From the NCBI GenBank assembly GCA_963716475.1, contig OY970314.1:74479-138478 (forward strand): DNA of 64,000 nucleotides. Direction: 5' to 3'. The stretch comes from Candidatus Woesebacteria bacterium (lineage in GTDB: Bacteria; Patescibacteriota; Microgenomatia; UBA8517). The notes under the pieces are model-generated. The model did not search any database. It saw only the letters and a list, made by a program, of their open reading frames with translations, and had not been told where the DNA came from. The number at the start of each line of letters is the position of its first letter. Within the stretch, counting starts at the first letter, position 1. The translations under genes were made by a program, and so were the position numbers. Below are positions 20,438 through 43,813 of the stretch, one piece after another.

Positions 20438-20467
20438 TTGACAGGTGTTAGGATGGTTGGTAACAAT
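20438..20467 (+). promoter_or_regulatory. Promoter of giant gene 2: TTGACA-N11-GGTTGGTAACAAT
   Basis: TTGACA at 20438-20443 and the 13-mer at 20455-20467, identical in sequence and spacing to gene 1. The -10-like hexamer ends 7 nt before ATG 20474, which suggests a leaderless mRNA. Confidence 0.5.
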
Positions 20468-20473
20468 GAATAT

Positions 20474-23400
20474 ATGCCCTTTTCCGAAGCTAAAAGAGAA
20501 AAGATCGTTTTATCCGTACTAAAGGATAATATTGCGGTTTCGGAAGTCTCCAGAAACTACTCTGTTGCCCGAAAAACTATTTACTCTTGGATAAAGAGGT
20601 ATAAAAAGGGAAGTCTTGCTCCACTATATACAAAGGGCAGGAAACACCCGGCGGCCGTATACCCGAAAGCCTATTCTTATATAAGTAGATGGGCTGTAGG
20701 GCACCCCAAGTGGGGATGCCGCACTTTGAGTAAAAGATTAAATGAAAAAGGAATCAGCTTGAGCTACGTTCAGGTTAACAGATTGTTGAACACAATCGGA
20801 GCGGAGACTTATGACAGAAGGTTGAATTATGCCAGAAACTTTGCCGGTCCGGGGAGAACCAGGGAGGATGTCAGGCTTGAAATTGTCAAAAAGGCCGTTA
20901 CCGGGAAAATTTCCATTACAACTCTTTCCGAAAACTACAAAGTTGCCCGTAAGACCATATATAAATGGATAGCGAAATACCGGGCCATTGGTAACATTAA
21001 AGATTCGTACGTCGTTGGTGAGGCTCATCCCAAGGCAATCTACCCGAAAATTACGCAGCAAGTACTCGACTTGGTCGTTACAAACCCCGGTTATTCGGTA
21101 CGCACTCTGGCTAAATCATTTCCGGCATCCTCTTGGACCATCTGGAGTATTTTAAATAGAAATAATCTGAATACATATAATTTAAGGCTCGAATATTCCA
21201 GGAATATATCTGAGGCTGCCGAAGAGAAAGTCTCGACAACGGGAGTTTCCGAAAGGATAAGATCTGTTTTTGAAAGCTTTACTCCAAATCTGGCTCCGGC
21301 CCCGCCTCCGGGGAAACGTAAAATCTTCAACTTCTTCATTATTTCAGTCTTCCTCTTATCAATATCCTTAGCAATTTTCTATTGGGGATCCGTAATTGTT
21401 CACGCTCCGAATATTGCCGGGTCCATAGGCATGATTTTTGCAGGCGTCTCACTGTCACTCGGAATGTTTTTCTTCCTTTATTCTCTTAAATACTATATTT
21501 CTACAGCGATAGTGCTTTCATATTCACAGAAAGAGGGCTTAGATGCCTCGAGAGTAAGCGCTACCGGCTTAAACTCAGACCTCAGTAACATTCATCTTGA
21601 ACGGCATCCTTATGTCTCGGTTCATCTGGCTCTCTATAACGAGAAGAATGTGGTGGAAAGACTGATGAAAGCAGCTACTTCTTTCGATTACGACAATTAT
21701 GAAGTAATCATCGCGGATGACTCAACTGATGAAACCACCGACAAAATCAGGGAGTTTCTGAAAACATTCCTTCCTAAAGGTGAATCGCTTCGGCAAACCA
21801 AAGGGGACGGGTGGGCAATGACAGAAGTTGACATAAGGAGCGGGGTTGTCTTTAAACATGTCCATAGAACCACAAGGATGGGTTATAAAGGGGGAGCGCT
21901 GAAGCTTGCCCTTTCTCTTACCGACCCGAAAGCTGAATTTGTTTCTGTCTTTGATGCCGATTTTGTGCCTTACCCAGATTCCCTGATGCTATTTCTTAAA
22001 TACTTCAAACTACAGAATAATGGATCAGAAGACTACAAAACAAGTAATACTGCATCAGTTCAGGGCTATCAGTGGCACGTACTTAATAAATCAGAAAACT
22101 GGATTACTAGGGGAGTCAGAAGTGAGTATGCAGGTAGCTACGTAATAGAAAGAGCCGGAACCGAAATCTACAAAGGCCTAAAGCAAATCTCGGGATCAGT
22201 TTACATGATCAGGCGCGATGTTTTGGAAGGAATAGGTTGGGGTACTTCTATCACTGAGGACTTTGAGCTTACCCTGAAACTCTACGAAAAAGGCTACAAA
22301 GTGGTTTATACGCCGTATATTCAGGCTCCGGCTGAATGCGTATCGACCCTAAGAAGACTTGTCAGACAACGTATGCGTTGGGCGGAAGGACATTCTTTCA
22401 ATGTCAAAAAGATGTTCGCAAAGCTTATGTTCTCTCCAAAACTTTCTTCCGCCGAGAAGTTTGAAACGGTTTATCTTGCCCCTTACTATCTACAGGCATT
22501 ATTCTTCCTCATCGGAACTCTCTCCTGGTTCATTTCGGAAACCATTTTACCCGCCCGCCTTCCTTTCTGGACAGAGCTTTGGGGATGGAGTTTGGTTCTG
22601 ACCAATATGATTTCACTGCCGCTTCTAAACACAGTCGGACTTTTCTTAGAGGAATCGGACAGAAAGGATTACTCGGGTATTCCATCTTTTATAGCTCTTT
22701 CATATATAGTTGTTCCGTTTCAGGCCTATGCGGCTGTAAAAGGCTTTCTGGAGAAGGAGGAAGGACCATGGTTTAGAACTCCGAAAACCGGCCGCATTAC
22801 GGATGTTTTCAAAAGAGGTAAGTTCTACAAATTTATTTCCGGGATCTTGCCGGGGAAGGCTGCCGGTTCTGCCACGAGTTATGATCTAAGTCCTTATCTT
22901 GCCCTGACCTCAGCCAATAATAGATTCAGCTCGTTCTCCATTCAAACAAGAAAAGGCAGAAGGTGGGTGGGAAAACTAATGCTAACCTCAATGCTTATTA
23001 TTTCCAATCTTCTTCTTTCTTTTTCTCCTTATATTGAATCAAGGGACGGCAACAGCCAACCTCCTCCGGGAACAGGTATTCTTATGGATGGCAGTACAAA
23101 AGGATCGGGAGGCAAGGTCAATTTAACTCCTGAGCAGCAGCAGTCTTTGGACAAATCGATTAAAGCGAATAACCAAAAAACAAGCTTTAAACTGGTTAGC
23201 GATGTCTCGGCAGCAGAAATATCCGGAGGCAGTGAGGTGAACACCTCCTTTGATGTTAAAAAGAAAGACCTTGAACTTAGCGGGGGAAATACCACCTTTA
23301 CAACTGATGAAAATCCCCAATTTACCTTAAAGCAGAACGACGGTTTTTGGGAATTTATCAAGAATATTTTCATTAAAGAAAAACCCTTGAAAGATCAGGT

Positions 23401-26400
23401 TGTTGTAACAGTTTTGGACTTAAAAGGTAAGGAGGTGGGAAGCCCGCAGGTGGTAGAAGGTGGAATTGATGATTTAAGTATAAATCTTGACAAAACAACC
23501 CTTACTCCGGGCGGATATACTCTTGAGATCAAAAGTGGGAGTAGCCCCGTTATCACCCAGGATTTCAGTTGGGGAGTGCTGGCAATAAATACCAATAAGT
23601 CGGTATATAGTCCGGGTGAAGACGCCTCCATTTCAATGGGGGTTCTTAATGAAGTTGGAGAAACGCTTTGTAGCGCGGGACTAACGCTTGATATTACAGA
23701 CACGGCAGGCACAGTTACCGCTTTAACCACAAAGGAGGGCACCATTAAAGTCAGCGATGAATGCAGCCTCAAGGGCTTCAGCCTGAAACCCGACTATGAA
23801 GCAGCCTACAAAACAACGGTTGCAGGAAAGTACAGCATGGTTCTGACTGCAGAGACTCTTAACGGCAAATATGTTATCAAGGGTTGGTTTGAGGCAAAAG
23901 ACTCGGTCGATTTTGACGTCGAAACGATTACGGCCTCCAGAATTAATCCGGTTTATGAATACCCGGTTATTTTTATAGTTAAGGCGGGTAAAGACTACAA
24001 TGGCATTGTTGAAGAAAAAGTCCCGGCCGGCTTTGAAATCAGTAAACTCAACGACTTAAAGTTGAATAACTATCTGGATTCTAAAGGGGAAAGTACGGCA
24101 AGCGGTAAACTTCAGGAGACACTGGTTAATGACGGTTCACAGGAGGCGGGACAAAAAACACTCCGTTGGATTGTTGACTGGAAAAAAGACCAGACTTATG
24201 TTCTTGCATACGCTTTTAAAGCGCCGATGGTCAGTCCAGAATTTTATCTACTCGGGCCGCTCTGGATCGGGGCATATGAGGGAGCGGGAGGTTGGCAGAT
24301 AGCCGCGGATAAGGTCCCTGCTGGGATTATTGTCGGTTGGCCGTCAACTGTAGCCTCAATTCCTAATCACTGGAGCAGGGTTTCAGGCGCGGCTCTTGAC
24401 GGGTACTTTTTAAGATCAGTAACAGCAACTGATCCGTCGGGTACTCCCGGAGGAAATGCCAGCCATACTCATTCACCGGCGAGTCATACTCATTCCGTTC
24501 CTGTCCATACACATACAGTTCCCGCTTTTGCCCAATCAACCAATACTTCGGCAACGACGGGTAACTCTACGGGTTCCGCCCGTGATACTCATACTCATGC
24601 GGCATTTAGTTCCGGAAATTCCAACGTAACCGTCAATAATGCCCAGACGGTTCCTTTTGCGGGACTTTCCAATGACCCCGATAATTCAACCGTCATCTGG
24701 ATCCAGTCGGACGGAGACCCGTCTACCGAAATTCCGGTAGGGTCTTATGTTTACTTTGACTCAAACACCATGCCGGGAGCCAACTGGGGTAGAGTAAAGG
24801 GAAATTACTTCCTTAAAGGTGCGGCAACGGGTTTAGGGGGAGGAACCGATACGGTAACAGGTTCCGCAACTCATACCCACGCCGCCTCAGCCGACCATAC
24901 CCATACTGAGGCTGCCCATACCCATTCAGGGAGCTCGGCAGGAGGTTCACTTGCTGTTTCCAGTACGGGAACTGGGTCTTACTCTCCGAGTGGCCATACA
25001 CATACCGTTACCTCAAGCTCCGTTGCGGCAACGGAGGGAGGAGCATCGGTAACCCCGACAGTCGGAGTGGCCGCTCCCTCGGGAGAACCTCCTTGGTACA
25101 AACTTAATATCATTAGTAAGTCTACAGGTGCTAATGAAACTCCTTTAAATGTCATTGCCATGTGGACCGGAACTCTGGCAACAATTCCCGACGGTTGGGT
25201 AATTTGTGACGGAACAAATGGAACTCCAAACCTGGGTACAAACTTTATCAAAGGCGCAAATGCCGACGGGGAGCTCAATACCACCGGGGGTTCCCTTACC
25301 CACACTCATGGGGCAGGCAATACCCATACACATACAATAAATGCTCACGTACACACCTGGACGGTTGGAGCTGCCTCCGGAACCGGTGTTGGATTAACGG
25401 GAAATGGAAGATCAGCCGTGGTCAGTACTCATACACATACCCTCAGCGCTGCGCAAACATCAAGTGGCGGAGGTTCAACAGGAACGGCAACTATTACGGC
25501 CGACTCGCAATCTAATCTTCCTCTCTACAAAGAGGTTGCCTACATTATGTATATCGGTAAGACTGTTGCCGGTAAAGCCTATTCGGATGAAGCAACCAGT
25601 ATCTGGGCCGGTTGTGACAACTCGACTGCCAGAATAAGTTTGGTAGTTAACGGCGGTACAGCCTCCACAACCTCATGCAGCAGTTCAGACGGATCTTTCA
25701 GTTTCAAGAATGTTACTCACGCGACAGATAATCCAATATCGGTATTTTTTAATACCGCAGGTAGCAATGCCGACAAAGGTGTGGCAGTTACTATCGCCAA
25801 CGATGCCACTACTCCGATTACCCTTAATCCCAGAAAAAATATTGTCTGGATGAGGAGTGAGAAAGCAACACCGACCATTACCAACTCCAATCTGGCTCAT
25901 TGTTATGCCTCAACCCCCGCAAGCTGTGCCAATGTCCCGTATTCTGCTTCGGGAGCCAATATAACCCTAACTACTGGAGTTGAGCTTCATGTAGAAAGCA
26001 GTATGACATATGATCCCGGGGGAACCACTGCAACCACCGGTACCGGAAGTCTGCATGTGGATGACAATGCTGTCGCATACTTGGATACTACTGGCAATAC
26101 CATTGCTAATAATATTTTAGTGGATGCCGGGGCGACCATTCATATTGATGCCAGTACGGCAGTAAACGGGGGAAATATCACGGTTACAGGTAACGGAATA
26201 GTATCTTCAGCCGCCGGAACCGTAACTATGGGGGCAAGCGGAACCATTGGGGGAGGATCAACAGGATCTACCTTCCAGTTAACAGATCTTGTTGTTTCTT
26301 CGGGGACTACAACCCTGGGGACGGATGCCGACAATATACTGGACTTTACCGGGGATATCAACGTTTCGGCCGGAGCCGTGCTTGCCATGAACAATAAAAC

Positions 26401-29400
26401 CGCTAATGTAGACGGAGGAAATCTGACGACAACTTCTACCGGGTCAGTTACCTGTTCAGGTTGTACGACTGGCGGTTTAACAATTTCAGGAGTCGGAACA
26501 ACAAATGGTATAGGCGGGGGAGGTGGAGCTATAACTTTATACAACCTGACACTTGACGGATCAACCAATACCACAACAGTCGGGTCAAGCGCCATTACGG
26601 TAACCAATGATGTAACAATAGGTACGGGAAGAACCCTGTCAGGAGCCGCATCAGGAACAATCTATGTGGGACACAACTGGGCCAACAGCGGCACTTACAA
26701 TGCCAACTCGGGAACTATTAATTTAAATGCAGCAGCCGATACTGTTCAACAGATAACAGGTGCGACCACATTTTATAATTTATATGTAGCTACTGGAGAT
26801 AGGATTATTAAATTTGGTTCATCAACCGCTTTTACCATTGATACCGGAGGAACCTTTACGGCAACAGGGGATTCCTGTTCGGCACTTGTGGTAATCCGTT
26901 CAACCACTTCCGGGAGTGCCGCAACAATTACCAAGACAGGTTCCGTTTCCTTCTCATATATAGATATACAGGATATCAACTTTTCGGCTTCTGCCTCGGC
27001 TTCTAATTCAGTCGATTCCGGAAACAACAGTAGTATCGTCATTGCAGCCAATAGCTGTCTTGGTGCATCAACCAATAACCAAGCCGCAACAGGTCATTCA
27101 TTCCAGAGAAAAGTATTCTATGATTCCGGGAATAATGTCTACTGGGGTTTCTACCATGACGGAACCCAGATCGAAGTCAGGTATTCATCAAATAGTGGCT
27201 CTACTTGGAATGTAGAAAATGACCATCTGGTACAAAATACCAACGACTTTTCCGTCTGGGACCAGACAATCTCCTCCTACTACGTCTTTTTGGCAGCCAA
27301 AAGCAGCGACAGTATTGTCTTAAGAAGAGGAACAATAACTTCAGGTGCAATCTCATGGGACAGTGAAACAACTCCGGTTACAGCCTTTACGGGGACGGGT
27401 TCAGGCGATTCTTATTCCTATCCCTATATCTCTGCCGATTCATCCGGTAATCTCTGGGTGGGAGCCAGATATTTTAACGGATCAAGTTATGTCTACAAAG
27501 CAGTCAAAAGTAACAATGCAGGAAGTGCTACCTGGACAAACGCTGCTTTTACCTGGGGAGATCCTTCTCAAATCTCTAATGATCAAGCCGACCCTAACGT
27601 TTTTGGCAATGTAGTATCCATAGGCTCGCTGAATATGTACGCAACATTCGTAGTAGGTACAACTATCAAAGGCTGTAAATACACCAATTCTCCTCCTGCC
27701 TGGAAGAATTCAGCAGGGACAGATTCATGCGTAACAACCGAGGGTAGTGGCGGCGGGGAGTCAACATATTTTGATAGCTTAAGTACCGGGTTAGTTGCGT
27801 ACTGGAAAATGAATGAAACTTCCTGGACAGGAGCGAGTAACGAGGTGGTTGATTCATCAGGCAACGGTAACAATGGAACTCGTGTAGGCGATGCAACAAC
27901 AACGGCTGCAGGGTTTTATAGGTCAGGAACGTTCGATGGGACGGGAGATAGGGTTTCTGTTCCTGACAAGACAGACTGGACATTATCGTCCGGAATAGAT
28001 CTGACATATTCAACCTGGATTAATTATACCGTATTGCCGGGGAGCACCAATTGGCCTGGTATTGTTGAAGGAGGTGATGATATGTATGGTTTCCAAATGA
28101 ATGGGCCCACTACCGGGAATATAGTTGTAGATTGGTGGGACGGTACTGTTGACCATACATCATCTTCGCAGGCTGTATCTGTCGGTACCTGGTATCATGT
28201 CGTGATAACTTTAGATTTTGGTGTAACTAATGGTTCCCATTGGTATTTTAACGGTAGAGACCTTGGAACTTTTACCGCACAAGATCGCAGTGTAAATCCT
28301 GATGCACTATATATCGGAGGTAGTGTTACCAATCCCGTTTCAAACAACGCTGTTAATGGAAAGATTGACGATCTGAGAATTTATAACAGGCTACTCTCTG
28401 GTGAAGAGGTTGCCAAACTTTATCAATATGCCCCGGATAGAGTCAATATCGACGATGCCAGTGATTTTAATGCTCCGTCCGGTAGACAAGTTGTTAGAGC
28501 GAAAAACGGGGATTTGTATACTTTTGTCAATGATGCGGGGACATGTGGGGTATGGAAGTCAACTGATGGAGCAAGTTGGTCAGAACAGGATAGTACTCAT
28601 CATAAAACTTGTATGAGTTATTCGGGGGTATCAATAGCGATTGATTCAACTGATAAGTTACATCTTTTATACGCTTCAGGATCCAACACCTTACAATATG
28701 ACACGTTTACTGCCGGGGCTTTTTCTATTCTTAATGAAAATATTTATAATGATGTTGGTGGCAATGGGCTAGGGGGTTTTGATATTGCTGTTGATGCAAA
28801 TAATATTCCCCACGTAGTCTATGTATACATAGACACGTTTACCGATAATCAACTTGGTTACGATAACCGTGTAGGTGGCGCTTGGAATGGTTCAGATGCT
28901 AACCCCGATACTGATAGTGTCGGATTGCTGTCTCCAACAATAGAGATTAATGAAACTGGGTATCCGGAAGTCTCATATATAAAGGCTAGTACTGGGGTTT
29001 TAGTGGCTAAGGCGGGAAACGGAAATGACCCCAATTTATGGGCAGGTTATAGTATAGATACGAGCGTTAATGTTACTGGCGGTCAGGGGGGTGCTTCAAT
29101 TGCAGTAGACACCTTGACCGGTAATACGTGGATAGCGTATGTCGACGGGGATAACGATATTTCTTTGGCAAAATATTCAGGGACGGATTATTCCGGATGG
29201 GAGACAGCCGGTAACTGGGCCACCGTGACCAGTAAAAGCGACGATGGGTACGACCCGTCAATTGCCATTACCGGACCTTCCGATATTTATGTTTTTTATC
29301 AGGATGATGGGGTGGCGGATAACGGAACTAATAAAAGGATCTCTTACGATATATATGATTCGATAGGAGAAGATTGGGCCGGGGAAGTTCCCCTACAAAC

Positions 29401-31612
29401 TCCAAGTTCAGGAGATTTTAAAACTGTTAAAGCCAAGTGGAGTTTTGAATGGAATAATTATGGTGCAAACAGGATTGATTATCTTTTCTCCGACGGAACC
29501 GATGTCTTCTGGAGCTATCTATACCTCCGCCGTCAGCCGACCAATATAGATGACGCCTCAAATATGGGAGCTCTTCCGGGAGAAGGCAGGCAGGTGGTGA
29601 GAACGTCAAGCGGGTATCTTTACTCTTTTATTGCCGGGAAAATGTGGAAATCAACCGATGGTGGAGCGACCTGGGCTCAAAAAGGTGCGAGTAAATCAGG
29701 CATTTTTAACACTCTAGCAGTGGGGTCGGATGATACATTACATGTCACCTTTGGGACGAGTACTACAGGTATTTTTTATGATACTTTTTCTACGTCTTCT
29801 GAAGCTTTTGCGGGATTAAATCAATCGATACATGCTTATACTGCAGGAGAGTCTATTGAAGATAGTGTGTCGATGGCATTGGATTCGAATGATATACCGC
29901 ATGTAGTTTATATTTATAACAATTCAGGCGCCACGGATACTTTTTTGATTTATGACAGCAAAGTCGGGGGTTCATGGCATACTCACTACTTGGTTTTGGA
30001 AGATAACGCGACGGGAGGCACAACCGATATTTTTAGCCCCGAAATAACGATTAATGAATCTGATTATCCTGAGGTTGTTGAATATAATGCCATGACCGGA
30101 ACGGTTCGAGGCAAGGCGGCAAATGCCAATGCTGCGACGGCGTTTGCGACCTATGTTATAGATGACAGTGTTGTAGGAACGCCGACTATCGGTATTGATT
30201 CGTCAGGAAATACCTGGGTGGCCTACGCAGACTCGGGAGATAAAATATCACTTGCAAAATACTCGGGCACTGATTTCACAGGCTGGTATACCTCGGGAAA
30301 CTGGGCTGTGAATACAAGTAAAACTCAAAAAGGATATAAACCTTCGATCGTAGTTGACGGAACTAATATTCGTGTTTTATATCAGGACGACCAAAACGAT
30401 ATTGTTTATGACACGTTTAACGGAACAAGTTGGAGCGGGGAGACTCTTCTGGAGGAACATGCAGCCCTGCAGGATGTTAAAGCCAGAGGGAGCTTTCTGA
30501 ATAATTATGATTCAACCGGGGTAGCACAGTTGAAATATAATACCTATTATTTTAATACTTACGATGGCGAACTTGGTGATCCGAATGGCGTATGGGGTAA
30601 TGATGCAAGCGCCTTTGATGGAAATACCGGTACCTCTGCCACTTCCGGCGTAAATGGGTCAACATCAAGTAATTATTTAATGGGTACAGGAACCAGTGCG
30701 CCGGCAAGCGGAGAAACGATCAGTAGTGTTCAGGTAAGATTTTATGGTGGTCAAGTTGTTGATTCTAATACAACGGTATATGCGACAGTTTCTTCTGGCG
30801 GAACAGAAATTGGAACAGCTACTATTTTTAAACTCAATGATCCCGCCTGGAGTGGTTTTGTTACTCTTTCTGCGCCCGGGGGAAGCTGGGACTGGTCTGA
30901 GGTGCAGGGATTAAATGTAAAATTATATGCCACAGGCATAGTGACTGGCTCTGTAGCGGTAAGGAAAGTGGAGATACAGGTCAAATCGACAAGTACAACT
31001 TCTCAGGCAGAAGTTGATTATGTGTATTCTGATGGCACGGATGTGTTTTACAACCGCCTGCTTTTAGGCGGTACCAGCTCAATTTCGGGAACCCAGGATC
31101 CGATTGACGACTTGATCCCCGCTGATATATCTAAAAATATCTCAACAGTTGCCGACGGGAGCGGGAATGTCCACATACTTTATATCAAGGACTCCGCTAC
31201 GGATTATGTAGCTTACAAGAAGTGGAACGGGACAAGCTGGGATGTAAGCCCGACGAGTATTGAATCAAACGCCAACGCAGCCTATCTGACACTATCCCGT
31301 GCCTCGGATACGGGAGATCTCTATGCCCTTTGGATTGACACATCCGCCAATACAATCAGAAAAAGTATATTTACCTCAAGCTGGTCCGGTCCTACCGCCT
31401 GGCAGAATCCGGGTGTAACAATCACAAACCTTTCCTCTTCGTATTCTGCATCCGCAGTATTTTCTGAGTGGACAATCGGAGCCCTTGCTCCTTTTGAAAT
31501 AAATGCTGGCGTGCTTAAAGTTCCAGAATATCTGCTTTTATTCCTACCCCTTGCACCGCTTTTGCCGTTTTTATCAAGAGTTAAGAAGAAAAGGGGAGCT
31601 CTGATTAGGTAG
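20474..31612 (+). CDS. Giant gene 2: tandem HTH - processive GT2 synthase - ~2800-aa multidomain ectodomain - VPE-CTERM protein
   Basis: I chose ATG 20474 ('MPFSEAKREKIVLSVL', parallel to gene 1 'MPTKEKISAVKKVL') over ORF-track TTG 20438, which is the -35 box. It has the same chassis motifs as gene 1, including a 66-aa identical run. The ectodomain carries Ig-like modules, HxH collar-like modules, Gly/Thr-rich beta-helix-like repeats, a LamG domain and duplicated Asp-box units. It ends 'VPEYLLLFLPLAPLLPFLSRVKKKRG'. Confidence 0.85.
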   Translation: MPFSEAKREKIVLSVLKDNIAVSEVSRNYSVARKTIYSWIKRYKKGSLAPLYTKGRKHPAAVYPKAYSYISRWAVGHPKWGCRTLSKRLNEKGISLSYVQVNRLLNTIGAETYDRRLNYARNFAGPGRTREDVRLEIVKKAVTGKISITTLSENYKVARKTIYKWIAKYRAIGNIKDSYVVGEAHPKAIYPKITQQVLDLVVTNPGYSVRTLAKSFPASSWTIWSILNRNNLNTYNLRLEYSRNISEAAEEKVSTTGVSERIRSVFESFTPNLAPAPPPGKRKIFNFFIISVFLLSISLAIFYWGSVIVHAPNIAGSIGMIFAGVSLSLGMFFFLYSLKYYISTAIVLSYSQKEGLDASRVSATGLNSDLSNIHLERHPYVSVHLALYNEKNVVERLMKAATSFDYDNYEVIIADDSTDETTDKIREFLKTFLPKGESLRQTKGDGWAMTEVDIRSGVVFKHVHRTTRMGYKGGALKLALSLTDPKAEFVSVFDADFVPYPDSLMLFLKYFKLQNNGSEDYKTSNTASVQGYQWHVLNKSENWITRGVRSEYAGSYVIERAGTEIYKGLKQISGSVYMIRRDVLEGIGWGTSITEDFELTLKLYEKGYKVVYTPYIQAPAECVSTLRRLVRQRMRWAEGHSFNVKKMFAKLMFSPKLSSAEKFETVYLAPYYLQALFFLIGTLSWFISETILPARLPFWTELWGWSLVLTNMISLPLLNTVGLFLEESDRKDYSGIPSFIALSYIVVPFQAYAAVKGFLEKEEGPWFRTPKTGRITDVFKRGKFYKFISGILPGKAAGSATSYDLSPYLALTSANNRFSSFSIQTRKGRRWVGKLMLTSMLIISNLLLSFSPYIESRDGNSQPPPGTGILMDGSTKGSGGKVNLTPEQQQSLDKSIKANNQKTSFKLVSDVSAAEISGGSEVNTSFDVKKKDLELSGGNTTFTTDENPQFTLKQNDGFWEFIKNIFIKEKPLKDQVVVTVLDLKGKEVGSPQVVEGGIDDLSINLDKTTLTPGGYTLEIKSGSSPVITQDFSWGVLAINTNKSVYSPGEDASISMGVLNEVGETLCSAGLTLDITDTAGTVTALTTKEGTIKVSDECSLKGFSLKPDYEAAYKTTVAGKYSMVLTAETLNGKYVIKGWFEAKDSVDFDVETITASRINPVYEYPVIFIVKAGKDYNGIVEEKVPAGFEISKLNDLKLNNYLDSKGESTASGKLQETLVNDGSQEAGQKTLRWIVDWKKDQTYVLAYAFKAPMVSPEFYLLGPLWIGAYEGAGGWQIAADKVPAGIIVGWPSTVASIPNHWSRVSGAALDGYFLRSVTATDPSGTPGGNASHTHSPASHTHSVPVHTHTVPAFAQSTNTSATTGNSTGSARDTHTHAAFSSGNSNVTVNNAQTVPFAGLSNDPDNSTVIWIQSDGDPSTEIPVGSYVYFDSNTMPGANWGRVKGNYFLKGAATGLGGGTDTVTGSATHTHAASADHTHTEAAHTHSGSSAGGSLAVSSTGTGSYSPSGHTHTVTSSSVAATEGGASVTPTVGVAAPSGEPPWYKLNIISKSTGANETPLNVIAMWTGTLATIPDGWVICDGTNGTPNLGTNFIKGANADGELNTTGGSLTHTHGAGNTHTHTINAHVHTWTVGAASGTGVGLTGNGRSAVVSTHTHTLSAAQTSSGGGSTGTATITADSQSNLPLYKEVAYIMYIGKTVAGKAYSDEATSIWAGCDNSTARISLVVNGGTASTTSCSSSDGSFSFKNVTHATDNPISVFFNTAGSNADKGVAVTIANDATTPITLNPRKNIVWMRSEKATPTITNSNLAHCYASTPASCANVPYSASGANITLTTGVELHVESSMTYDPGGTTATTGTGSLHVDDNAVAYLDTTGNTIANNILVDAGATIHIDASTAVNGGNITVTGNGIVSSAAGTVTMGASGTIGGGSTGSTFQLTDLVVSSGTTTLGTDADNILDFTGDINVSAGAVLAMNNKTANVDGGNLTTTSTGSVTCSGCTTGGLTISGVGTTNGIGGGGGAITLYNLTLDGSTNTTTVGSSAITVTNDVTIGTGRTLSGAASGTIYVGHNWANSGTYNANSGTINLNAAADTVQQITGATTFYNLYVATGDRIIKFGSSTAFTIDTGGTFTATGDSCSALVVIRSTTSGSAATITKTGSVSFSYIDIQDINFSASASASNSVDSGNNSSIVIAANSCLGASTNNQAATGHSFQRKVFYDSGNNVYWGFYHDGTQIEVRYSSNSGSTWNVENDHLVQNTNDFSVWDQTISSYYVFLAAKSSDSIVLRRGTITSGAISWDSETTPVTAFTGTGSGDSYSYPYISADSSGNLWVGARYFNGSSYVYKAVKSNNAGSATWTNAAFTWGDPSQISNDQADPNVFGNVVSIGSLNMYATFVVGTTIKGCKYTNSPPAWKNSAGTDSCVTTEGSGGGESTYFDSLSTGLVAYWKMNETSWTGASNEVVDSSGNGNNGTRVGDATTTAAGFYRSGTFDGTGDRVSVPDKTDWTLSSGIDLTYSTWINYTVLPGSTNWPGIVEGGDDMYGFQMNGPTTGNIVVDWWDGTVDHTSSSQAVSVGTWYHVVITLDFGVTNGSHWYFNGRDLGTFTAQDRSVNPDALYIGGSVTNPVSNNAVNGKIDDLRIYNRLLSGEEVAKLYQYAPDRVNIDDASDFNAPSGRQVVRAKNGDLYTFVNDAGTCGVWKSTDGASWSEQDSTHHKTCMSYSGVSIAIDSTDKLHLLYASGSNTLQYDTFTAGAFSILNENIYNDVGGNGLGGFDIAVDANNIPHVVYVYIDTFTDNQLGYDNRVGGAWNGSDANPDTDSVGLLSPTIEINETGYPEVSYIKASTGVLVAKAGNGNDPNLWAGYSIDTSVNVTGGQGGASIAVDTLTGNTWIAYVDGDNDISLAKYSGTDYSGWETAGNWATVTSKSDDGYDPSIAITGPSDIYVFYQDDGVADNGTNKRISYDIYDSIGEDWAGEVPLQTPSSGDFKTVKAKWSFEWNNYGANRIDYLFSDGTDVFWSYLYLRRQPTNIDDASNMGALPGEGRQVVRTSSGYLYSFIAGKMWKSTDGGATWAQKGASKSGIFNTLAVGSDDTLHVTFGTSTTGIFYDTFSTSSEAFAGLNQSIHAYTAGESIEDSVSMALDSNDIPHVVYIYNNSGATDTFLIYDSKVGGSWHTHYLVLEDNATGGTTDIFSPEITINESDYPEVVEYNAMTGTVRGKAANANAATAFATYVIDDSVVGTPTIGIDSSGNTWVAYADSGDKISLAKYSGTDFTGWYTSGNWAVNTSKTQKGYKPSIVVDGTNIRVLYQDDQNDIVYDTFNGTSWSGETLLEEHAALQDVKARGSFLNNYDSTGVAQLKYNTYYFNTYDGELGDPNGVWGNDASAFDGNTGTSATSGVNGSTSSNYLMGTGTSAPASGETISSVQVRFYGGQVVDSNTTVYATVSSGGTEIGTATIFKLNDPAWSGFVTLSAPGGSWDWSEVQGLNVKLYATGIVTGSVAVRKVEIQVKSTSTTSQAEVDYVYSDGTDVFYNRLLLGGTSSISGTQDPIDDLIPADISKNISTVADGSGNVHILYIKDSATDYVAYKKWNGTSWDVSPTSIESNANAAYLTLSRASDTGDLYALWIDTSANTIRKSIFTSSWSGPTAWQNPGVTITNLSSSYSASAVFSEWTIGALAPFEINAGVLKVPEYLLLFLPLAPLLPFLSRVKKKRGALIR
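24319..25560 (+). repeat. Three phage tail-collar-like modules with 12 H-x-H triplets (protein-level repeat)
   Basis: Examples: 'IAMWTGTLATIPDGWVICDGTNGTPNLGTNFIKGA...GGSLTHTHGAGNTHTHTINAHVHT' and 'SHTHSPASHTHSVPVHTHT'. The region terminates with 'NLPLYKEVAYIMYIG'. Confidence 0.7.
27787..28430 (+). other. LamG-like (concanavalin-A-like lectin/glucanase) jelly-roll domain inside giant gene 2
   Basis: 'LVAYWKMNETSW...VVDSSGNGNNGT...GTFDGTGDRVSVPD...TWYHVVIT...GKIDDLRIYNRLLSGEEVAKLY' is the canonical Laminin_G_3 pattern. Confidence 0.8.
28442..31075 (+). repeat. Intragenic tandem duplication of a ~360-aa Asp-box/beta-propeller-like unit, second copy with ~155-aa insertion
   Basis: Unit A runs 28442-29530 ('VNIDDASDFNAPSGRQVVRAKNGDLY...VWKSTDGASWSEQ...DYLFSDGTDVFWSYLYL'). 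Unit B runs 29540-31075 ('TNIDDASNMGALPGEGRQVVRTSSGYLY...MWKSTDGGATWAQ...DYVYSDGTDVFYNRLLL'). The insertion is at about 30544-31010. Confidence 0.7.
31520..31609 (+). other. C-terminal tripartite sorting-signal-like region (VPEY / Pro-rich hydrophobic / RVKKKR)
   Basis: 'VPEYLLLFLPLAPLLPFLSRVKKKRGALIR' at the extreme C-terminus of giant gene 2. Confidence 0.65.
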
Positions 31613-31624
31613 TACAATGACATA

Positions 31625-33550
31625 ATGAAAAGAAAATTTAATTTAAATGTTATCGGTAAGATATTTCTTTTGGCTTCGTTTCTAATACCTTTTGTTATTT
31701 ACCTTAAGACGCTTTGCCCGACGCTTTCCTCCTATGCTGATGCGGGAGAGTTCCCGACCTTTGCTTATATAAGCGGTTTTGCCCATCCTCCTGGGTACCC
31801 CCTGTATATTCTGATACTCAAGTTGTTCCTTTTATTGCCGGTCGCGGGGAGTGTTGCCATGAAAGCCAATTTGGCATCGGCATTTATCTCCGCGGCTTGC
31901 GTCGCCCTTACCTATCTTTGGCTGAGAAGACTAAAATTGGAAGAGGGCGTTGCCTTCACAACCTCGCAAATACTGGCCTTTACACCGATTTTTTGGAGAA
32001 ACGCGTTGATTTCCGAGGTCTTCGGTCTTCTGACGTTATTTATTGTTTTAACCAATTACATGTATCTAAGATGGACCGAGACGGGGGAGAAGAGGGACTT
32101 TTATCTTTTTCTTTTCTTTTGCGGTCTTGGCCTTTCCCATCACCAGCTTTTGATGATAGCTCTTGTTCCGCTTTTAGTGCATTTCATTATTACCAAGAAA
32201 TGGAAATTGATTAATTATAAAAATGTAATAATCGGAATAGCTCTGTTTTTGATTGGGTTCTTACCGTATTTATATATATTGTTATATTCTGCACCGCGTT
32301 GGCCTCTAATGAACTGGAACAACCCCAGCAGTTTGGTAGGTCTTAAGGAATTGATCACCCGTTCGACTTATGGCACTTTTACACTGACGAATCAGTATCA
32401 GGCGTCCGATTTAAAGGTACAGGCCTGGGGGATATTAAAGTTGATTTATAGTAATTATTCGCTTTTTGGAATCGTACTTTTTCCTTTCGGATTAATTTAC
32501 CTCCTTCTAAAAAAGAAGTGGGGCATGACCGCAACCAGCCTCTTTGTAATAATTGCTATTTTTCTTTTCTCCCTCTATTCGGGTATGCCGGTTTTGCAGA
32601 ACAGCCAAATACAATATCTGGAGCGTTTTCAACTTGCAAGCACGGCCTTTATGATTCTTATCATTGCCTTTGGAATTTCCTTTTTCAGGGACCTTGTTTT
32701 TTCCATTAAGCCTCTGAGAGTTCCGGTGCTAATTTTGTTCATGCTGATTCCGGCCGGCCTTGTCTATACAAATTACGCAAAAGTGGATCAAAGTAAAAAT
32801 TACTTTGCAGATAACCTTGCGGATGATATTTTTGCTTCCATCCCTAAAGACAGCATTTTTTTGATGGAGGGGGACAATGTCATTAATGATGTTTTTTATA
32901 ACCGCTACGTTTTGGGACAAAGGAAAGACATCATTTTTATCATAGGCGGACTTATGGACGCCCAGAGTCCCTGGTACCTACAGGAACTGAGGCGTTTTTA
33001 TCCGGACCTGGTTCTGCCTGAAGTTACCGACGACAGAACAGACTACTTAGACGCTTTCCTGGCAGAAAATTCGATAAAAAGGCAAATAATCTTGTATTTA
33101 CCCTCGCTTGAAAACGATTTGGGAATATACATCAATAAAGTAAATAGGGGAATTGTCTGGAAATTTGTCAGGGAGGATGAAGAAGTTTATCTGGGTGATG
33201 TTCAGGATGAAATCCTTGCGCTCACCGGTAGCTACAAAAACCTGAAAGGGAGATTAAATTATACGCTCGATTCTCCCGAATACGCTTTATTGAACCTTTA
33301 TACCCAACCTTATATTTATCTGGCTCAGATGAACGATGACGATCCTGTCTTATCAGAAGAGTACTATAAAAAGGCATTGGCAATTACGCCGGATAATTAT
33401 CAGGCTTTGACCGAGATGGGTGATGACTACTTGATGTATGGGGAGTATGAGAAAGCGGTCGCAAGCTGGAAGCAAGCTCTGAATTATATTTACGATAGTG
33501 ATTTGAGGGATGAAGTTTTGGCAAAAATAGACGAATACCAAAACCAGTAA
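31625..33550 (+). CDS. DUF2723 (TMEM260-like) GT-C membrane glycosyltransferase with C-terminal TPR repeats
   Basis: 641 aa. It has the N-terminal signature 'DAGEFPTFAYISGFAHPPGYPLY', about 10 hydrophobic segments and TPR-like 'EEYYKKALAITPDNYQALTEMGDDYLMYGEYEKAVASWKQAL'. It starts 12 nt after the giant gene 2 stop. Confidence 0.7.
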   Translation: MKRKFNLNVIGKIFLLASFLIPFVIYLKTLCPTLSSYADAGEFPTFAYISGFAHPPGYPLYILILKLFLLLPVAGSVAMKANLASAFISAACVALTYLWLRRLKLEEGVAFTTSQILAFTPIFWRNALISEVFGLLTLFIVLTNYMYLRWTETGEKRDFYLFLFFCGLGLSHHQLLMIALVPLLVHFIITKKWKLINYKNVIIGIALFLIGFLPYLYILLYSAPRWPLMNWNNPSSLVGLKELITRSTYGTFTLTNQYQASDLKVQAWGILKLIYSNYSLFGIVLFPFGLIYLLLKKKWGMTATSLFVIIAIFLFSLYSGMPVLQNSQIQYLERFQLASTAFMILIIAFGISFFRDLVFSIKPLRVPVLILFMLIPAGLVYTNYAKVDQSKNYFADNLADDIFASIPKDSIFLMEGDNVINDVFYNRYVLGQRKDIIFIIGGLMDAQSPWYLQELRRFYPDLVLPEVTDDRTDYLDAFLAENSIKRQIILYLPSLENDLGIYINKVNRGIVWKFVREDEEVYLGDVQDEILALTGSYKNLKGRLNYTLDSPEYALLNLYTQPYIYLAQMNDDDPVLSEEYYKKALAITPDNYQALTEMGDDYLMYGEYEKAVASWKQALNYIYDSDLRDEVLAKIDEYQNQ

Positions 33551-33554
33551 GAAA

Positions 33555-34127
33555 ATGAATCAAAAAGCGCTTTTTAAACAAATACTGGCAACCCTTGTAA
33601 TTATATTGGCAGTTTTACCTGTGATTGTGACTTTTTCGGCAGTTTTGACTTCATTTTTCGAAAAAATTAAGCTTTATGTGTGGCTTCAGGATCTGGCTGT
33701 TCCTTTTGAAAGCAGACTGGTTGCGGTTCTAATCCAACTCTTTGGAATCAAAGGAATTATAACCCCCGGCAGCAGTTTTGCCATGGTTTTGCGGACATCC
33801 TCGGGGACTTTTACCCCGGTTGCATTGGAATGGAACTGTTTGGGCTGGCAAAGCCTGATTCTATTGGGTCTTACCCTAATAACAGGCCTCAGGGGAGCTT
33901 ACACGGGTTTAAGTAAAGCCCAGGTTGTTCTTTTCGGAATACTCGGAACTTTTTTATCAAATCTATTCAGGATGGCTTTTATTGTCATTCTGGCTTTTTA
34001 TTGGAATTCATTTGCAGCTATGATTATCCATGATTATTTTGCCAGTTTTGTCGCTATCATCTGGATGTTATTTTTCTGGTGGTTCTCCTACAGGTATATT
34101 TTGGAGGAAAAACCTGCGGGAAACTAA
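33555..34127 (+). CDS. Miniature exosortase/archaeosortase-like polytopic protein (cassette 2)
   Basis: 190 aa with 'EWNCLGWQS', 'SNLFRMAF', 'IIHDYFA' and the tail 'FWWFSYRYILEEK' shared with cassette 3. It starts 4 nt after the upstream stop. Confidence 0.62.
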   Translation: MNQKALFKQILATLVIILAVLPVIVTFSAVLTSFFEKIKLYVWLQDLAVPFESRLVAVLIQLFGIKGIITPGSSFAMVLRTSSGTFTPVALEWNCLGWQSLILLGLTLITGLRGAYTGLSKAQVVLFGILGTFLSNLFRMAFIVILAFYWNSFAAMIIHDYFASFVAIIWMLFFWWFSYRYILEEKPAGN

Positions 34128-42988: not shown

Positions 42989-43117
42989 GACAGGTAGATT
43001 ATCAGAAATAGTATACTAGAAAAAGATTTAGGTACAATGGGACAAAAAAGAATCCATTGTGCGAAAACCCATTGACGTATATTGGGGTGTTTGGGTACAC
43101 TTGGGGCTGAATTAAAA

Positions 43118-43813
43118 ATGAAAATTGCCTTGATTATTCCCACATACAATGAAGCCGAAAATATTGTTAACCTGATACGGGGTGTAAAACTCCGAAATCT
43201 TAATTTAAAAATAATTGTAGTTGATGACGCCTCACCTGACGGTACCGGAAAGAAGGTTTCGAAATTTCCTGAGGTAATATTGATTTCCAGAAAGGGAAAA
43301 CTGGGTCTGGGGTCTGCCTATAAGGAAGGTTTTAAATATGCTTTAAGGCAGGGATATGATGTTATCGGAACAATGGATGCGGACTTTTCCCACGACCCGA
43401 AATTTCTTCCGGAAATGGTAACCGCAATAAAAAGGTGCGACATGGTAATAGGTTCCAGATATGTCAAAGGTGGGAATATAGTCGGTTTTAATTTTTGGAG
43501 AAAATTAATAAGCGGATCGGCGCAGTTCATGTCAAGGAAACTTTTGGGAATAAACGTTAAAGACGCCACAAGCGGTTTTAGATTATATAAAAAAGATGTT
43601 CTTATAACAACCGGTTATGCATCGATTAAGTCCCAGGGGTATTCTTTTTTGATCGAATCTCTATTTTTATCCCTAAAACACGGCTTTAATGTATGTGAAG
43701 TACCAATCGTTTTTGAAAACAGAAGACTGGGAACATCAAAAATATCGGGCTCGGAAATTATAAAGGCCCTATTTACAGTTGTCAGGCTTAAGTATAAATT
43801 TAATTTGGCTTAG
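43118..43813 (+). CDS. Polyprenol-phosphate glycosyltransferase (Dpm1-like GT2)
   Basis: 'MKIALIIPTYNEAENI', 'VVDDASPDGT' and 'DADFSHDP'. I chose ATG 43118 over the upstream-extended 43082. Confidence 0.8.
   Translation: MKIALIIPTYNEAENIVNLIRGVKLRNLNLKIIVVDDASPDGTGKKVSKFPEVILISRKGKLGLGSAYKEGFKYALRQGYDVIGTMDADFSHDPKFLPEMVTAIKRCDMVIGSRYVKGGNIVGFNFWRKLISGSAQFMSRKLLGINVKDATSGFRLYKKDVLITTGYASIKSQGYSFLIESLFLSLKHGFNVCEVPIVFENRRLGTSKISGSEIIKALFTVVRLKYKFNLA

What the first reader, a model, noticed from the sequence alone, without database searches (positions are those of the whole stretch)
31625..33550. DUF2723/TMEM260-like GT-C glycosyltransferase wedged between giant gene 2 and its sortase
**Seen.**
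- Only cassette 2 has an extra gene between substrate and mini-sortase. It starts 12 nt after the giant gene's stop and ends 4 nt before the sortase ATG.
- It encodes 'GEFPTFAYISGFAHPPGYPLY', about 10 TM helices and a C-terminal TPR.
- The cassette 2 ectodomain is by far the largest and is extremely Ser/Thr-rich.

**Established.** The DUF2723 family includes human TMEM260, reported as a protein O-mannosyltransferase. GT-C enzymes use polyprenol-phosphate sugars on the outer face of the membrane.

**Inference.** This is a dedicated O-glycosyltransferase that decorates the ectodomain before or during sortase processing. The Dpm1-like polyprenol-phosphate glycosyltransferase at 43118 could supply the donor.
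Basis: partly seen in the sequence, partly recalled or inferred. Interest (0 to 1): 0.55.

Follow-up and report, generated by a model that had tools for sequence, protein, structure and literature searches.

The report
Bacterial TMEM260-like glycosyltransferase beside giant protein
The gene is a well-conserved bacterial relative of the human protein O-mannosyltransferase TMEM260, and in related genomes it almost always sits next to a relative of one part of the giant surface protein beside it here, which makes that protein its likely sugar-acceptor, though nothing shows this directly.

Summary
The ORF at 31625-33550 is real, with 12-nt and 4-nt spacers. It is a genuine TMEM260-like (DUF2723) GT-C enzyme.

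- **Family:** PF11028 scores 92 bits. A profile of its close relatives matches solved human TMEM260 (9rql) at E = 1e-67.
- **Residues:** All six residues shown by mutagenesis to matter in the human enzyme are conserved: D39, H54, R246, Y249, R334, D417.
- **Model:** The predicted structure (pLDDT 90) has a transmembrane core, a Rossmann-like domain and TPR helices.

**New here.** In 15 of 16 informative loci whose GT-C is at least 39% identical, the adjacent gene is a homologue of giant-2 residues ~940-1820. It is usually immediately downstream, with overlapping or abutting stop and start codons. Giants 1 and 3 lack this module and lack the GT-C. This supports a dedicated enzyme-client pair.

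**Not supported.**
- No link to the sortase: none of the 38 GT-C-centred related loci has a mini-exosortase or a VPE tail.
- No conserved link to the Dpm1-like gene, which abuts its own 13-TM partner.
- Ser/Thr richness is not special to cassette 2: ectodomains 1, 2 and 3 have 25, 23 and 24%.
- The human IPT sequon is absent.

**Verdict.** A new member of a known kind, of moderate interest.

The parts
31625..33550 (+). TMEM260-like (DUF2723) GT-C glycosyltransferase gene, 641 aa
   Evidence: The ORF is listed and translated. PF11028 scores 92.3 bits against a cut-off of 24.2. The A1 profile matches human TMEM260 9rql at E = 1.3e-67. The AF2 model has pLDDT 90.1 and pTM 0.90. Foldseek finds the GT-C enzymes PglB, STT3, ALG12, ArnT and Pmt4.
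31739..31804 (+). First outward-facing loop motif (aa 39-60, DAGEFPT...AHPPGYPL). It holds D39 and H54, the equivalents of TMEM260 D52 and H67 in the sugar-recognition motif.
   Evidence: The residue-by-residue HMM alignment to 9rql is. Both residues are invariant in 24 relatives. Their roles in the human enzyme come from bioRxiv 10.64898/2026.03.17.711096.
32360..32371 (+). R246 and Y249, the equivalents of TMEM260 R264 and Y267 in the donor-loading loop (phosphate and sugar contacts)
   Evidence: Alignment. R246 is invariant and Y249 at least 90% conserved. Human mutagenesis is described.
32624..32626 (+). R334, the equivalent of TMEM260 R355 (TMH10, mannose contact), inside the invariant E-R-F motif
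32837..33259 (+). Extracytoplasmic Rossmann-like domain (aa ~405-545) with D417, the equivalent of the TMEM260 catalytic base D441 (window MEGD against human LRGD)
   Evidence: The model has five beta-strands at 411-414, 437-440, 488-491, 505-508 and 511-514. D417 is invariant. Alignment.
33275..33541 (+). C-terminal TPR-like helical domain (aa 551-639, six helices), the presumed acceptor-binding 'fingers'
20438..31612 (+). Giant gene 2 (up to 3724 aa). It has N-terminal 2xHTH plus a GT2 synthase-like multi-TM module (aa 1-~862), then a ~2830-aa ectodomain, then a VPEY + hydrophobic + basic C-terminal tail.
23255..25927 (+). Giant-2 ectodomain module (aa 940-1830), whose homologues neighbour the GT-C in related genomes. 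It is the proposed acceptor region. Sub-module A (~1000-1290) is a set of Ig/MG-like beta-sandwiches. Sub-module B (~1290-1710) is rich in Ser/Thr and in HxH motifs.
   Evidence: tblastn synteny. Homologue coverage. Consensus. AF2 and Foldseek results. There are 26 conserved Ser/Thr columns. Giants 1 and 3 lack the module.
33555..34127 (+). Mini exosortase/archaeosortase-like protein of cassette 2 (190 aa), 4 nt downstream of the GT-C
   Evidence: TIGR04178 scores 32.2 bits against a cut-off of 23. No homologue occurs next to any GT-C relative.
43082..43813 (+). Dpm1/GtrB/PpgS-like polyprenyl-phosphate glycosyltransferase (GT2, no TM segment). It is a possible donor synthase, not shown to be linked.
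   Evidence: PF00535 scores 105 bits. NCBIfam PpgS, AglJ, Dol-P-hexose transferase, PgfS and ArnC all hit below their cut-offs. No relative of it was found in the GT-C loci.
43814..45154 (+). 13-TM membrane protein that starts at the base after the stop of the Dpm1-like gene. It is a weak PTPS_related (GT-C-like) match and is the more parsimonious direct partner of that GT2.

Best explanation
The gene encodes an active TMEM260-type GT-C protein O-glycosyltransferase.

**Topology (inferred).** The basic N-terminus (MKRKFNLNVIGK) lies in the cytoplasm. About 11 transmembrane helices form the pocket for the lipid-linked donor. The first loop (D39, H54), the Rossmann-like domain (D417) and the TPR 'fingers' face outward.

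**Mechanism (by analogy with the human enzyme).** It takes a polyprenyl-phosphate hexose on the outer face of the membrane. It transfers the sugar to Ser/Thr of an extended stretch of polypeptide as that stretch leaves the translocon.

**Preferred client (inferred from synteny).** The client is the giant-2 ectodomain, specifically the module at aa ~940-1820. In related Patescibacteria-like genomes this module is a separate, N-terminally anchored giant protein, encoded right next to the GT-C.

**This genome.** Here the client module has been built into an HTH-GT2-ectodomain-VPE-tail giant. The GT-C gene therefore ends up between that giant and its mini-exosortase, and is probably co-transcribed and co-translated with both.

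**Shown.** Family membership, conserved catalytic and donor-binding residues, the predicted fold, and the conserved gene pairing.

**Inferred.** Activity, protein acceptor, identity of the client, timing relative to sortase cleavage, and the sugar.
For: **Family and residues.**
- PF11028 scores 92.3 bits.
- Animal TMEM260 sequences hit at E ~1e-39.
- The A1 profile matches 9rql at E = 1.3e-67 over residues 17-589 against 31-628.
- D52, H67, R264, Y267, R355 and D441 of TMEM260 were all shown by mutagenesis to be needed. They align to D39, H54, R246, Y249, R334 and D417, which are invariant or at least 90% conserved in 24 relatives of 33-50% identity.

**Structure.**
- The AF2 model (pLDDT 90.1) shows the same three-part build as the human enzyme.
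- The best PDB fold matches are GT-C enzymes.

**Synteny.**
- Loci L005-L010, L030, L032-L038 carry a homologue of giant-2 aa ~940-1820 next to the GT-C, at 31-48% identity and E from 1e-33 (L038, where the contig ends after 146 aligned residues) to 1e-138.
- Stop and start codons overlap or abut in most of them.
- The partners have one N-terminal TM segment and are otherwise extracytoplasmic.

**Internal control.** The three giants share only their N-terminal ~860 aa. Only giant 2 has the module, and only cassette 2 has the GT-C.

**Against a role with the GT2 polymer.** The partner proteins in relatives have no GT2 domain.
Against: - There is no biochemical evidence of any kind.
- The human acceptor signature is absent from giant 2: no IPT domain and no Px6Px3Px2GGx3T sequon.
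- The Asn ladder of the human TPR has no conserved counterpart.
- The linkage is one-sided. Two more distant module proteins (P0123, P0198) have no GT-C within 4-8 kb, and a third sits at a contig end.
- The 34%-identity GT-C clade lies beside an rRNA operon with no giant nearby.
- Relatives also keep a second giant (C-terminus FNWWI[VI]N) upstream of the GT-C. That giant could equally be a client.
- One locus (L031) has pilin-like genes downstream instead.
- The gene order differs: the GT-C is upstream of its partner in relatives and downstream here.
Confidence: 0.55

Rival explanations
1. It is a general protein O-glycosyltransferase. On this reading it decorates many Ser/Thr-rich surface proteins of the cell, including giants 1 and 3, pilins and other giants. 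It sits next to giant genes only because such genes cluster in surface-protein islands.
For: - All three ectodomains are equally Ser/Thr-rich, at 23-25% against an 11% background.
- Relatives have giants on both sides of the GT-C.
- L031 has pilin-like N_methyl genes next to it.
- Module sub-part A is common in many Patescibacteria-like surface proteins.
- General O-glycosylation by one GT-C plus one GtrB-like enzyme is known in streptococci (PMC11092751, abstract seen).
Against: - The neighbour is the same orthologous A+B protein in 15 of 16 loci across deep divergence, with GT-C identities of only 39-50%.
- Start and stop codons are often coupled. That is tighter than island co-location would give.
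- Within the window the GT-C follows the only giant that has the module.
- The human family member is highly client-specific.
Confidence: 0.25
2. The acceptor is not a protein. On this reading the enzyme adds a sugar to a polysaccharide, glycolipid or wall polymer, for example the product of the GT2 synthase part of the giants. The neighbouring ectodomain is then a scaffold or accessory, not a substrate.
For: - Many GT-C enzymes act on lipids or glycans. ArnT, Emb and Aft proteins and ALG enzymes are among the fold matches.
- Giant 2 carries its own processive-type GT2 domain.
- The window holds a large glycan gene cluster downstream.
Against: - The only characterised member of this family is a protein O-mannosyltransferase.
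- The Rossmann-like domain with the catalytic base (D417) is conserved, and so is the TPR peptide-binding domain.
- Partner proteins in relatives have no GT2 domain, so the pairing does not depend on a synthase.
Confidence: 0.12
3. It is a donor-fed pair with the Dpm1-like gene at 43082. On this reading that GT2 makes the polyprenyl-phosphate sugar specifically for this GT-C.
For: - The GT2 belongs to the Dpm1/GtrB/PpgS/ArnC group.
- Any GT-C of this type needs such a donor.
- An undecaprenyl-diphosphate synthase gene is also in the window, at 11564-12841.
Against: - The two genes are 9.5 kb apart. Cassette 3 and a gene on the opposite strand lie between them.
- No Dpm1-like gene lies near the GT-C in any related locus.
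- The Dpm1-like gene abuts a 13-TM protein with a weak GT-C-like (PTPS_related) match. Two more such membrane proteins follow, so it has closer candidate partners.
- A shared membrane pool of donor cannot be excluded.
Confidence: 0.3

Closest known systems
Human TMEM260 (protein O-mannosyltransferase; PDB 9rql, 9rqm, 9rqn; Pfam PF11028)
   Same: - It is homologous over the transmembrane core and the Rossmann-like domain (residues 17-589 of 641); the C-terminal TPR lies beyond the aligned stretch and matches by architecture, not by sequence alignment.
- It has the same three-part build: a GT-C transmembrane core, an outward-facing Rossmann-like domain and C-terminal TPR helices.
- All six mutationally validated residues are conserved.
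   Different: - It is bacterial, from a ~1-Mb-contig organism whose relatives are labelled Patescibacteria.
- Identity to animal TMEM260 is about 27-29%.
- The TPR is shorter and has no conserved Asn ladder.
- The neighbouring candidate client has no IPT domain and no human sequon.
- The donor must be a bacterial polyprenyl-phosphate sugar of unknown identity.
- It is encoded beside its candidate client.
Actinobacterial and fungal PMT enzymes (GT39; Pmt with Ppm1, Pmt1-Pmt2, Pmt4)
   Same: - They are GT-C enzymes that use polyprenyl-phosphate mannose to O-glycosylate Ser/Thr of proteins as they are translocated (my knowledge).
- They share an acidic residue in the first loop.
- The PMT_2 profile matches at 38 bits, and Pmt4 and Pmt1-Pmt2 are fold matches.
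   Different: - The PF02366 (PMT) score of 20.6 is below its cut-off of 22.7.
- There is no MIR domain.
- This protein has a Rossmann-like domain with the catalytic base and a TPR domain instead.
Streptococcal Pgf-type O-glycosylation (GtrB-like PgfS plus a GT-C transferase acting on Ser/Thr-rich regions)
   Same: - It follows a two-step logic: a cytoplasmic GT2 makes a lipid-phosphate sugar and a GT-C transfers it outside to Ser/Thr-rich extracytoplasmic regions (PMC11092751, abstract).
- The window's GT2 hits the PgfS model weakly (E = 5e-11, far below its cut-off).
   Different: - It belongs to a different GT-C family.
- Here the GT2 and the GT-C are not adjacent.
- The candidate acceptor is a folded giant module, not short disordered tails.
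Metazoan TMTC1-4 (GT-C plus TPR O-mannosyltransferases of cadherins)
   Same: They combine a GT-C core with C-terminal TPR repeats and are client-specific O-mannosyltransferases.
   Different: - No TMTC-type (DUF1736) profile hit was found.
- This protein has an intervening Rossmann-like domain and only about three TPR-like repeats.
Archaeal S-layer glycoprotein maturation (PGF-CTERM with archaeosortase ArtA, plus glycosylation)
   Same: A heavily glycosylated surface protein whose C-terminal sorting signal is processed by an exosortase/archaeosortase-family enzyme (my knowledge). The layout in the window suggests the same combination.
   Different: - The combination is seen only in this genome among the loci sampled.
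- The sortases here are ~190-aa minimal forms that match only the family signature TIGR04178.
- The giant also has an N-terminal membrane-embedded GT2 module.

Membership tests
TMEM260-like / DUF2723 (Pfam PF11028) | Profile match above the curated gathering score | tested here: met
   92.3 bits against a cut-off of 24.2, aa 39-195 on profile positions 1-177 of 179.
TMEM260-like / DUF2723 (Pfam PF11028) | Homology to experimentally characterised TMEM260 beyond the N-terminal domain | tested here: met
   The A1 profile matches 9rql_A at E = 1.3e-67 in one stretch, 17-589 against 31-628. Fish TMEM260 sequences hit at E ~1e-39 with 27-29% identity over ~70% of the query.
TMEM260-like / DUF2723 (Pfam PF11028) | Sugar-recognition motif residues D52 and H67 | tested here: met
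   They align to D39 and H54, both invariant in 24 relatives.
TMEM260-like / DUF2723 (Pfam PF11028) | Donor-loading-loop residues R264 and Y267, and R355 in TMH10 | tested here: met
   They align to R246 (invariant), Y249 (at least 90% conserved) and R334 (invariant, in E-R-F).
TMEM260-like / DUF2723 (Pfam PF11028) | Catalytic base D441 in an outward-facing Rossmann-like domain | tested here: met
   Human LRGD aligns to window MEGD. D417 is invariant. The model has a five-stranded sheet at aa 411-514.
TMEM260-like / DUF2723 (Pfam PF11028) | GT-C fold with 11 transmembrane helices (7 + 4) | tested here: inconclusive
   The GT-C fold is supported: the model has pLDDT 90, and Foldseek finds PglB, STT3, ALG12, ArnT and Pmt4 at E down to 6e-6. 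The exact helix count was not established. Hydropathy gives 10-12 segments. 9rql is not in the fold library, and afdb50 was unavailable.
TMEM260-like / DUF2723 (Pfam PF11028) | C-terminal TPR domain with the Asn ladder (N602, N638, N642, N680) that recruits the acceptor | tested here: inconclusive
   TPR helices are present. No Asn is invariant or near-invariant in the C-terminal 90 residues of A1. The sequence alignment to 9rql stops at residue 589.
TMEM260-like / DUF2723 (Pfam PF11028) | Acceptor is an IPT domain with the sequon Px6Px3Px2GGx3T | tested here: not met
   There is no IPT/TIG Pfam hit in giants 1-3. There are no full or GGxxxT-type sequon matches. Only a loose core pattern occurs 4 times in giant 2, against 0.6 expected. 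This feature concerns the client, not the enzyme family.
TMEM260-like / DUF2723 (Pfam PF11028) | Transfers mannose from a polyprenyl-phosphate mannose donor to Ser/Thr | not testable with these tools
   This needs biochemistry or glycoproteomics.
PMT / GT39 protein O-mannosyltransferases (PF02366) | PMT profile above its cut-off, and MIR domains in a luminal loop | tested here: not met
   PF02366 scores 20.6 bits, below its cut-off of 22.7, and there is no MIR hit. Only the broad PMT_2 model passes (38.1 against 26.1).
Exosortase-linked cassette component (a gene conserved with the mini-sortase and the VPE-tail giant) | Co-occurrence of the GT-C with an exosortase homologue or a VPE-type C-terminal signal in related genomes | tested here: not met
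   hmmsearch with a profile of the three window sortases (E <= 1) and a regular-expression search for VPE tails both found nothing in the 38 GT-C-centred related loci. Two of the three cassettes in the window lack a GT-C.

The most novel reading that the evidence does not exclude
This clade would be the first prokaryotic TMEM260-type enzyme with an identifiable, genetically linked client. The client would be a giant, non-IPT, Ig/MG-like surface protein of Patescibacteria-like bacteria. In this genome the enzyme-client pair has been captured by a cassette that fuses the client to a DNA-binding HTH-GT2 synthase and to an exosortase sorting signal. Glycosylation, polysaccharide synthesis and C-terminal processing of one polypeptide would then be coordinated from a single operon.
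Probability: 0.3. Interest if true: 0.65.

Novelty: new member of a known kind. Interest (0 to 1): 0.45.

Why it matters
Human TMEM260 was recognised as a protein O-mannosyltransferase only in 2023, and its structure appeared in 2026. Its bacterial relatives (DUF2723) have no known role or client. In the held library, only the 2023 PNAS paper mentions DUF2723 at all.

A bacterial clade that keeps every catalytic residue and is encoded beside one conserved giant surface protein gives a concrete enzyme-substrate hypothesis. That hypothesis can be tested by co-expression. It would also say something about how the surfaces of ultra-small, mostly uncultured bacteria are built.

The reach is limited. 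The family assignment is what public annotation would already give, and the functional link rests on gene neighbourhood alone.

Tried and rejected
- **Single-protein scan of genome contigs.** It found nothing. The alignment-based scan gave only 4 loci, so most context came from the metagenome scan and from exact look-ups.
- **Exact look-up of the window's own protein.** No contig was returned, and cluster look-ups gave no names. The organism is therefore inferred only from the labels on homologues.
- **Human TMEM260 sequon and IPT search in the giants.** Negative.
- **Sortase and VPE-tail search in related loci.** Negative.
- **Alternative genetic code for the 34%-identity clade.** Rejected. 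The ORF-free 6 kb is a 23S rRNA gene with group I introns, plus 5S rRNA.
- **Structure of the giant-2 module.** Only aa ~1050-1290 is confident, as beta-sandwiches like macroglobulin and Ig domains. The rest has pLDDT 30-40 and was not interpreted.
- **afdb50 fold search for a direct TM-score to TMEM260.** The library was not available. 9rql is not in the Foldseek PDB copy.
- **Promoter and terminator scans around the junctions.** They gave nothing beyond chance.
- **Pseudogene or inactive-relic reading.** Rejected, because the ORF is intact and every key residue is conserved.
Full report
**Observation.** The ORF at 31625..33550 (+, ATG, 641 aa) is real.
- Giant gene 2 ends at 31612, 12 nt upstream. 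The next gene starts at 33555, 4 nt downstream. That gene is a 190-aa exosortase/archaeosortase-like protein (TIGR04178, 32 bits).
- The other two cassettes have the sortase directly after the giant: an 8-nt overlap in one and a 9-nt gap in the other.
- The quoted peptide is at aa 41-61.
- Hydropathy gives 10-12 hydrophobic segments.
- Giant-2's ectodomain is the largest, at ~2831 aa against 403 and 1147. Its Ser+Thr content (23.2%) is no higher than that of ectodomain 1 (25.3%) or 3 (23.5%). All three are about twice the 11.3% of other proteins in the window. Ser/Thr richness therefore cannot be why only cassette 2 has this gene.

**What the protein is.** Four lines of evidence place it in the TMEM260-like family.
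- *Profile.* Pfam PF11028 (TMEM260-like, formerly DUF2723) matches at 92.3 bits against a cut-off of 24.2. The broad PMT_2 model passes, the GT39 PMT model does not, and TPR models hit weakly at aa 580-627.
- *Homologues.* A database search gave a subfamily of 24 full-length relatives at 33-50% identity, more distant bacterial DUF2723 proteins, and animal TMEM260 at E ~1e-39.
- *Solved structure.* A profile of the subfamily matches human TMEM260 (9rql) at E = 1.3e-67 in one stretch, residues 17-589 against 31-628.
- *Functional residues.* The 2026 structure paper (bioRxiv 10.64898/2026.03.17.711096) names six residues that matter. D52 and H67 lie in the sugar-recognition motif. R264 and Y267 lie in the donor-loading loop. 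R355 lies in TMH10. D441 is the catalytic base in the luminal Rossmann-like domain. In the printed alignment they fall on D39, H54, R246, Y249, R334 and D417. All are invariant or at least 90% conserved in the 24 relatives. The chain numbering is confirmed because the paper's R439, G440 and P443 also fall in place.

**Predicted structure.**
- The AlphaFold2 model is confident (pLDDT 90.1, pTM 0.90). It shows a helical membrane core up to about aa 387, a five-stranded Rossmann-like domain, and six C-terminal TPR-like helices. This is the same three-part plan as the human enzyme.
- Foldseek against the PDB returns GT-C enzymes: PglB, STT3, ALG12, ArnT and Pmt4.
- 9rql is not in that fold library and afdb50 was unavailable. 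No direct superposition could be made, and the helix count of about 11 stays approximate.
- The basic N-terminus and an odd number of helices would put the first loop, the Rossmann-like domain and the TPR outside the cell. This topology is an inference.

**Surroundings in the window.**
- The three giants share only an N-terminal ~860 aa, at 49-59% identity. That part consists of two HTH domains and a processive-type GT2 domain with several transmembrane segments.
- Their ectodomains are unrelated to one another.
- Each giant ends in VPE[K/Y/N] plus a hydrophobic stretch plus a basic tail.

**Related genomes: the main new result.** I gathered 38 loci around GT-C relatives.
- In L005-L010, L030, L032-L038 the gene next to the GT-C is a homologue of giant-2 residues ~940-1820. 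(L011 duplicates L035.) Identity is 31-48%, and E runs from 1e-33, in a locus cut short by the contig end, to 1e-138.
- That is 15 of 16 informative loci whose GT-C is at least 39% identical.
- The partner is usually immediately downstream. Its start codon overlaps or abuts the GT-C stop codon, from a 41-nt overlap to a 13-nt gap. In one locus it is divergent (L037).
- These partners are proteins of 833 to 3043 aa with a single N-terminal membrane anchor. They have no GT2 domain, no HTH and no VPE tail.
- In giant 2 the homologous stretch begins just after the last transmembrane segment of the GT2 part.
- Giants 1 and 3 have no such module.
- So the conserved unit is 'TMEM260-like enzyme plus this extracytoplasmic protein'. 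In this genome the protein has become the ectodomain of an HTH-GT2 giant with an exosortase signal.

**What the module looks like.**
- Sub-part A (aa ~1000-1290) occurs in about 90 of the 105 database hits. It is often fused to M23 peptidase, DUF2341 or laminin-G domains.
- It is modelled confidently as tandem beta-sandwiches that resemble macroglobulin and Ig-like arrays.
- Sub-part B (aa ~1290-1710) is rarer, Ser/Thr-rich (27.6%) and full of HxH motifs. It could not be modelled.
- Across 13 GT-C-linked modules, 26 columns hold Ser/Thr in all or all but one of the sequences. These are candidate acceptor sites and nothing more.

**Limits of the linkage.**
- No related locus has a sortase homologue or a VPE-type tail. 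The tie to sortase processing is therefore specific to this genome.
- No related locus has a Dpm1-like gene.
- Relatives keep a second giant upstream of the GT-C, with a conserved C-terminus ending FNWWI[VI]N. It is absent from the window and could also be a client.
- L031 has a different giant and pilin-like genes as neighbours.
- The 34%-identity clade lies downstream of a 23S rRNA gene with group I introns, and 5S rRNA, with no giant nearby.
- In the reverse direction, two more distant module proteins have no GT-C within 4-8 kb, and a third is at a contig end.

**The acceptor signature of the human enzyme is not here.**
- No IPT/TIG domain was detected and no Px6Px3Px2GGx3T sequon.
- The Asn ladder of the human TPR has no conserved counterpart.
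- The enzyme chemistry looks conserved, so acceptor recognition must differ.

**The proposed donor supplier.**
- The GT2 at 43082-43813 does belong to the Dpm1/GtrB/PpgS/ArnC group.
- It lies 9.5 kb away, beyond cassette 3 and a gene on the opposite strand.
- It abuts a 13-TM protein with a weak PTPS_related (GT-C-like) match, and two more such proteins follow.
- It may feed a shared membrane pool of donor. Nothing ties it specifically to this GT-C.

**Most likely mechanism (confidence 0.55).** The enzyme binds a polyprenyl-phosphate hexose in its membrane core. It holds an extended segment of the giant-2 ectodomain with its TPR and Rossmann-like domains as that segment emerges from the translocon. 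It then transfers the sugar to Ser/Thr, with D417 as the general base.
- The tight spacing makes co-transcription with the giant and the sortase likely.
- No promoter or terminator signal above chance was seen at the junctions.
- Family membership, residues, fold and synteny are shown. Activity, acceptor, sugar and timing are inferred.

**Rivals.**
- A general O-glycosyltransferase for many surface proteins (0.25).
- A non-protein acceptor, with the ectodomain as an accessory (0.12).

**Verdict.** The family assignment is right and well supported. The 'dedicated enzyme' idea gains real but indirect support from conserved gene pairing. The links to the sortase and to the Dpm1-like gene do not generalise. 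This is a new member of a known family with a useful candidate client, and it is moderately interesting.

Noticed in passing
window 15395-19282, 20438-31612, 35013-41273 (with 19275-19838, 33555-34127, 41283-41888): All three giants begin with two HTH DNA-binding domains and a processive-type GT2 domain with several TM segments (49-59% identical over ~860 aa). Unrelated ectodomains follow, then a VPE[K/Y/N] + hydrophobic + basic tail. Each giant is followed by a 187-201-aa protein that matches only the exosortase/archaeosortase signature. A DNA-binding domain fused to a membrane synthase and a sorted ectodomain is an odd combination.
   Followed up: partly
L005 257-7906, L007 27-8924, L008 244-9489, L035 618-9539, and others: In relatives the GT-C is also preceded by a giant protein whose last ~650 aa are conserved and end in FNWWI[VI]N. 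The L005 and L007 versions carry 45-aa repeats with GKF[VI]TI[LI]G. That pattern happens to fit the core preference reported for human TMEM260 (Gly at -4 and +3, hydrophobic at -1 and +1). There is no homologue in the window.
   Followed up: partly
window 24308-25570 (giant-2 aa ~1290-1710): Sub-module B has repeated HxH / HTHT motifs and 27.6% Ser+Thr. AlphaFold2 gives pLDDT of only 30-40 there. It may need oligomerisation or metal binding to fold.
   Followed up: no
window 43814-45154, 49791-52790, 52774-55557: A 13-TM protein abuts the Dpm1-like GT2. Two large membrane proteins downstream match PTPS_related (PF10131), one at 42 bits and the others only weakly. These are further candidate GT-C-like transferases. 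They sit in a glycan cluster with an epimerase/dehydratase, a GT4, methyltransferases and three radical-SAM proteins.
   Followed up: partly
L001 4563-9833 (also L002, L012-L015): The 34%-identity GT-C clade lies just downstream of a 23S rRNA gene carrying two group I introns, plus 5S rRNA. The MAGs are labelled 'uncultured Gammaproteobacteria', which looks doubtful for this gene content.
   Followed up: partly
L008 9571-9939, L035 9601-9963: A small 23S_rRNA_IVP-family protein gene (four-helix-bundle type) sits between the upstream giant and the GT-C in two relatives.
   Followed up: no
L003 9794-15902, L021 7489-13012, L022 7560-13083: Three DUF2723 paralogues lie in tandem in Elusimicrobia-type contigs. 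This suggests diversification of acceptor specificity in other phyla.
   Followed up: no
window 41966-42988 (-): A class-A beta-lactamase-like gene (PF13354, 110 bits; below the NCBIfam equivalog cut-off) lies on the opposite strand, between cassette 3 and the glycan cluster.
   Followed up: no
window 11564-12841: The undecaprenyl-diphosphate synthase domain covers aa 20-239 of a 425-aa ORF. The C-terminal ~185 aa are unassigned.
   Followed up: no
L041 14330-14857: A stretch homologous to the C-terminal part of the giant-3 ectodomain (aa 1859-2060, 28% identity) lies among dockerin- and cohesin-like genes, near a distant module protein.
   Followed up: no
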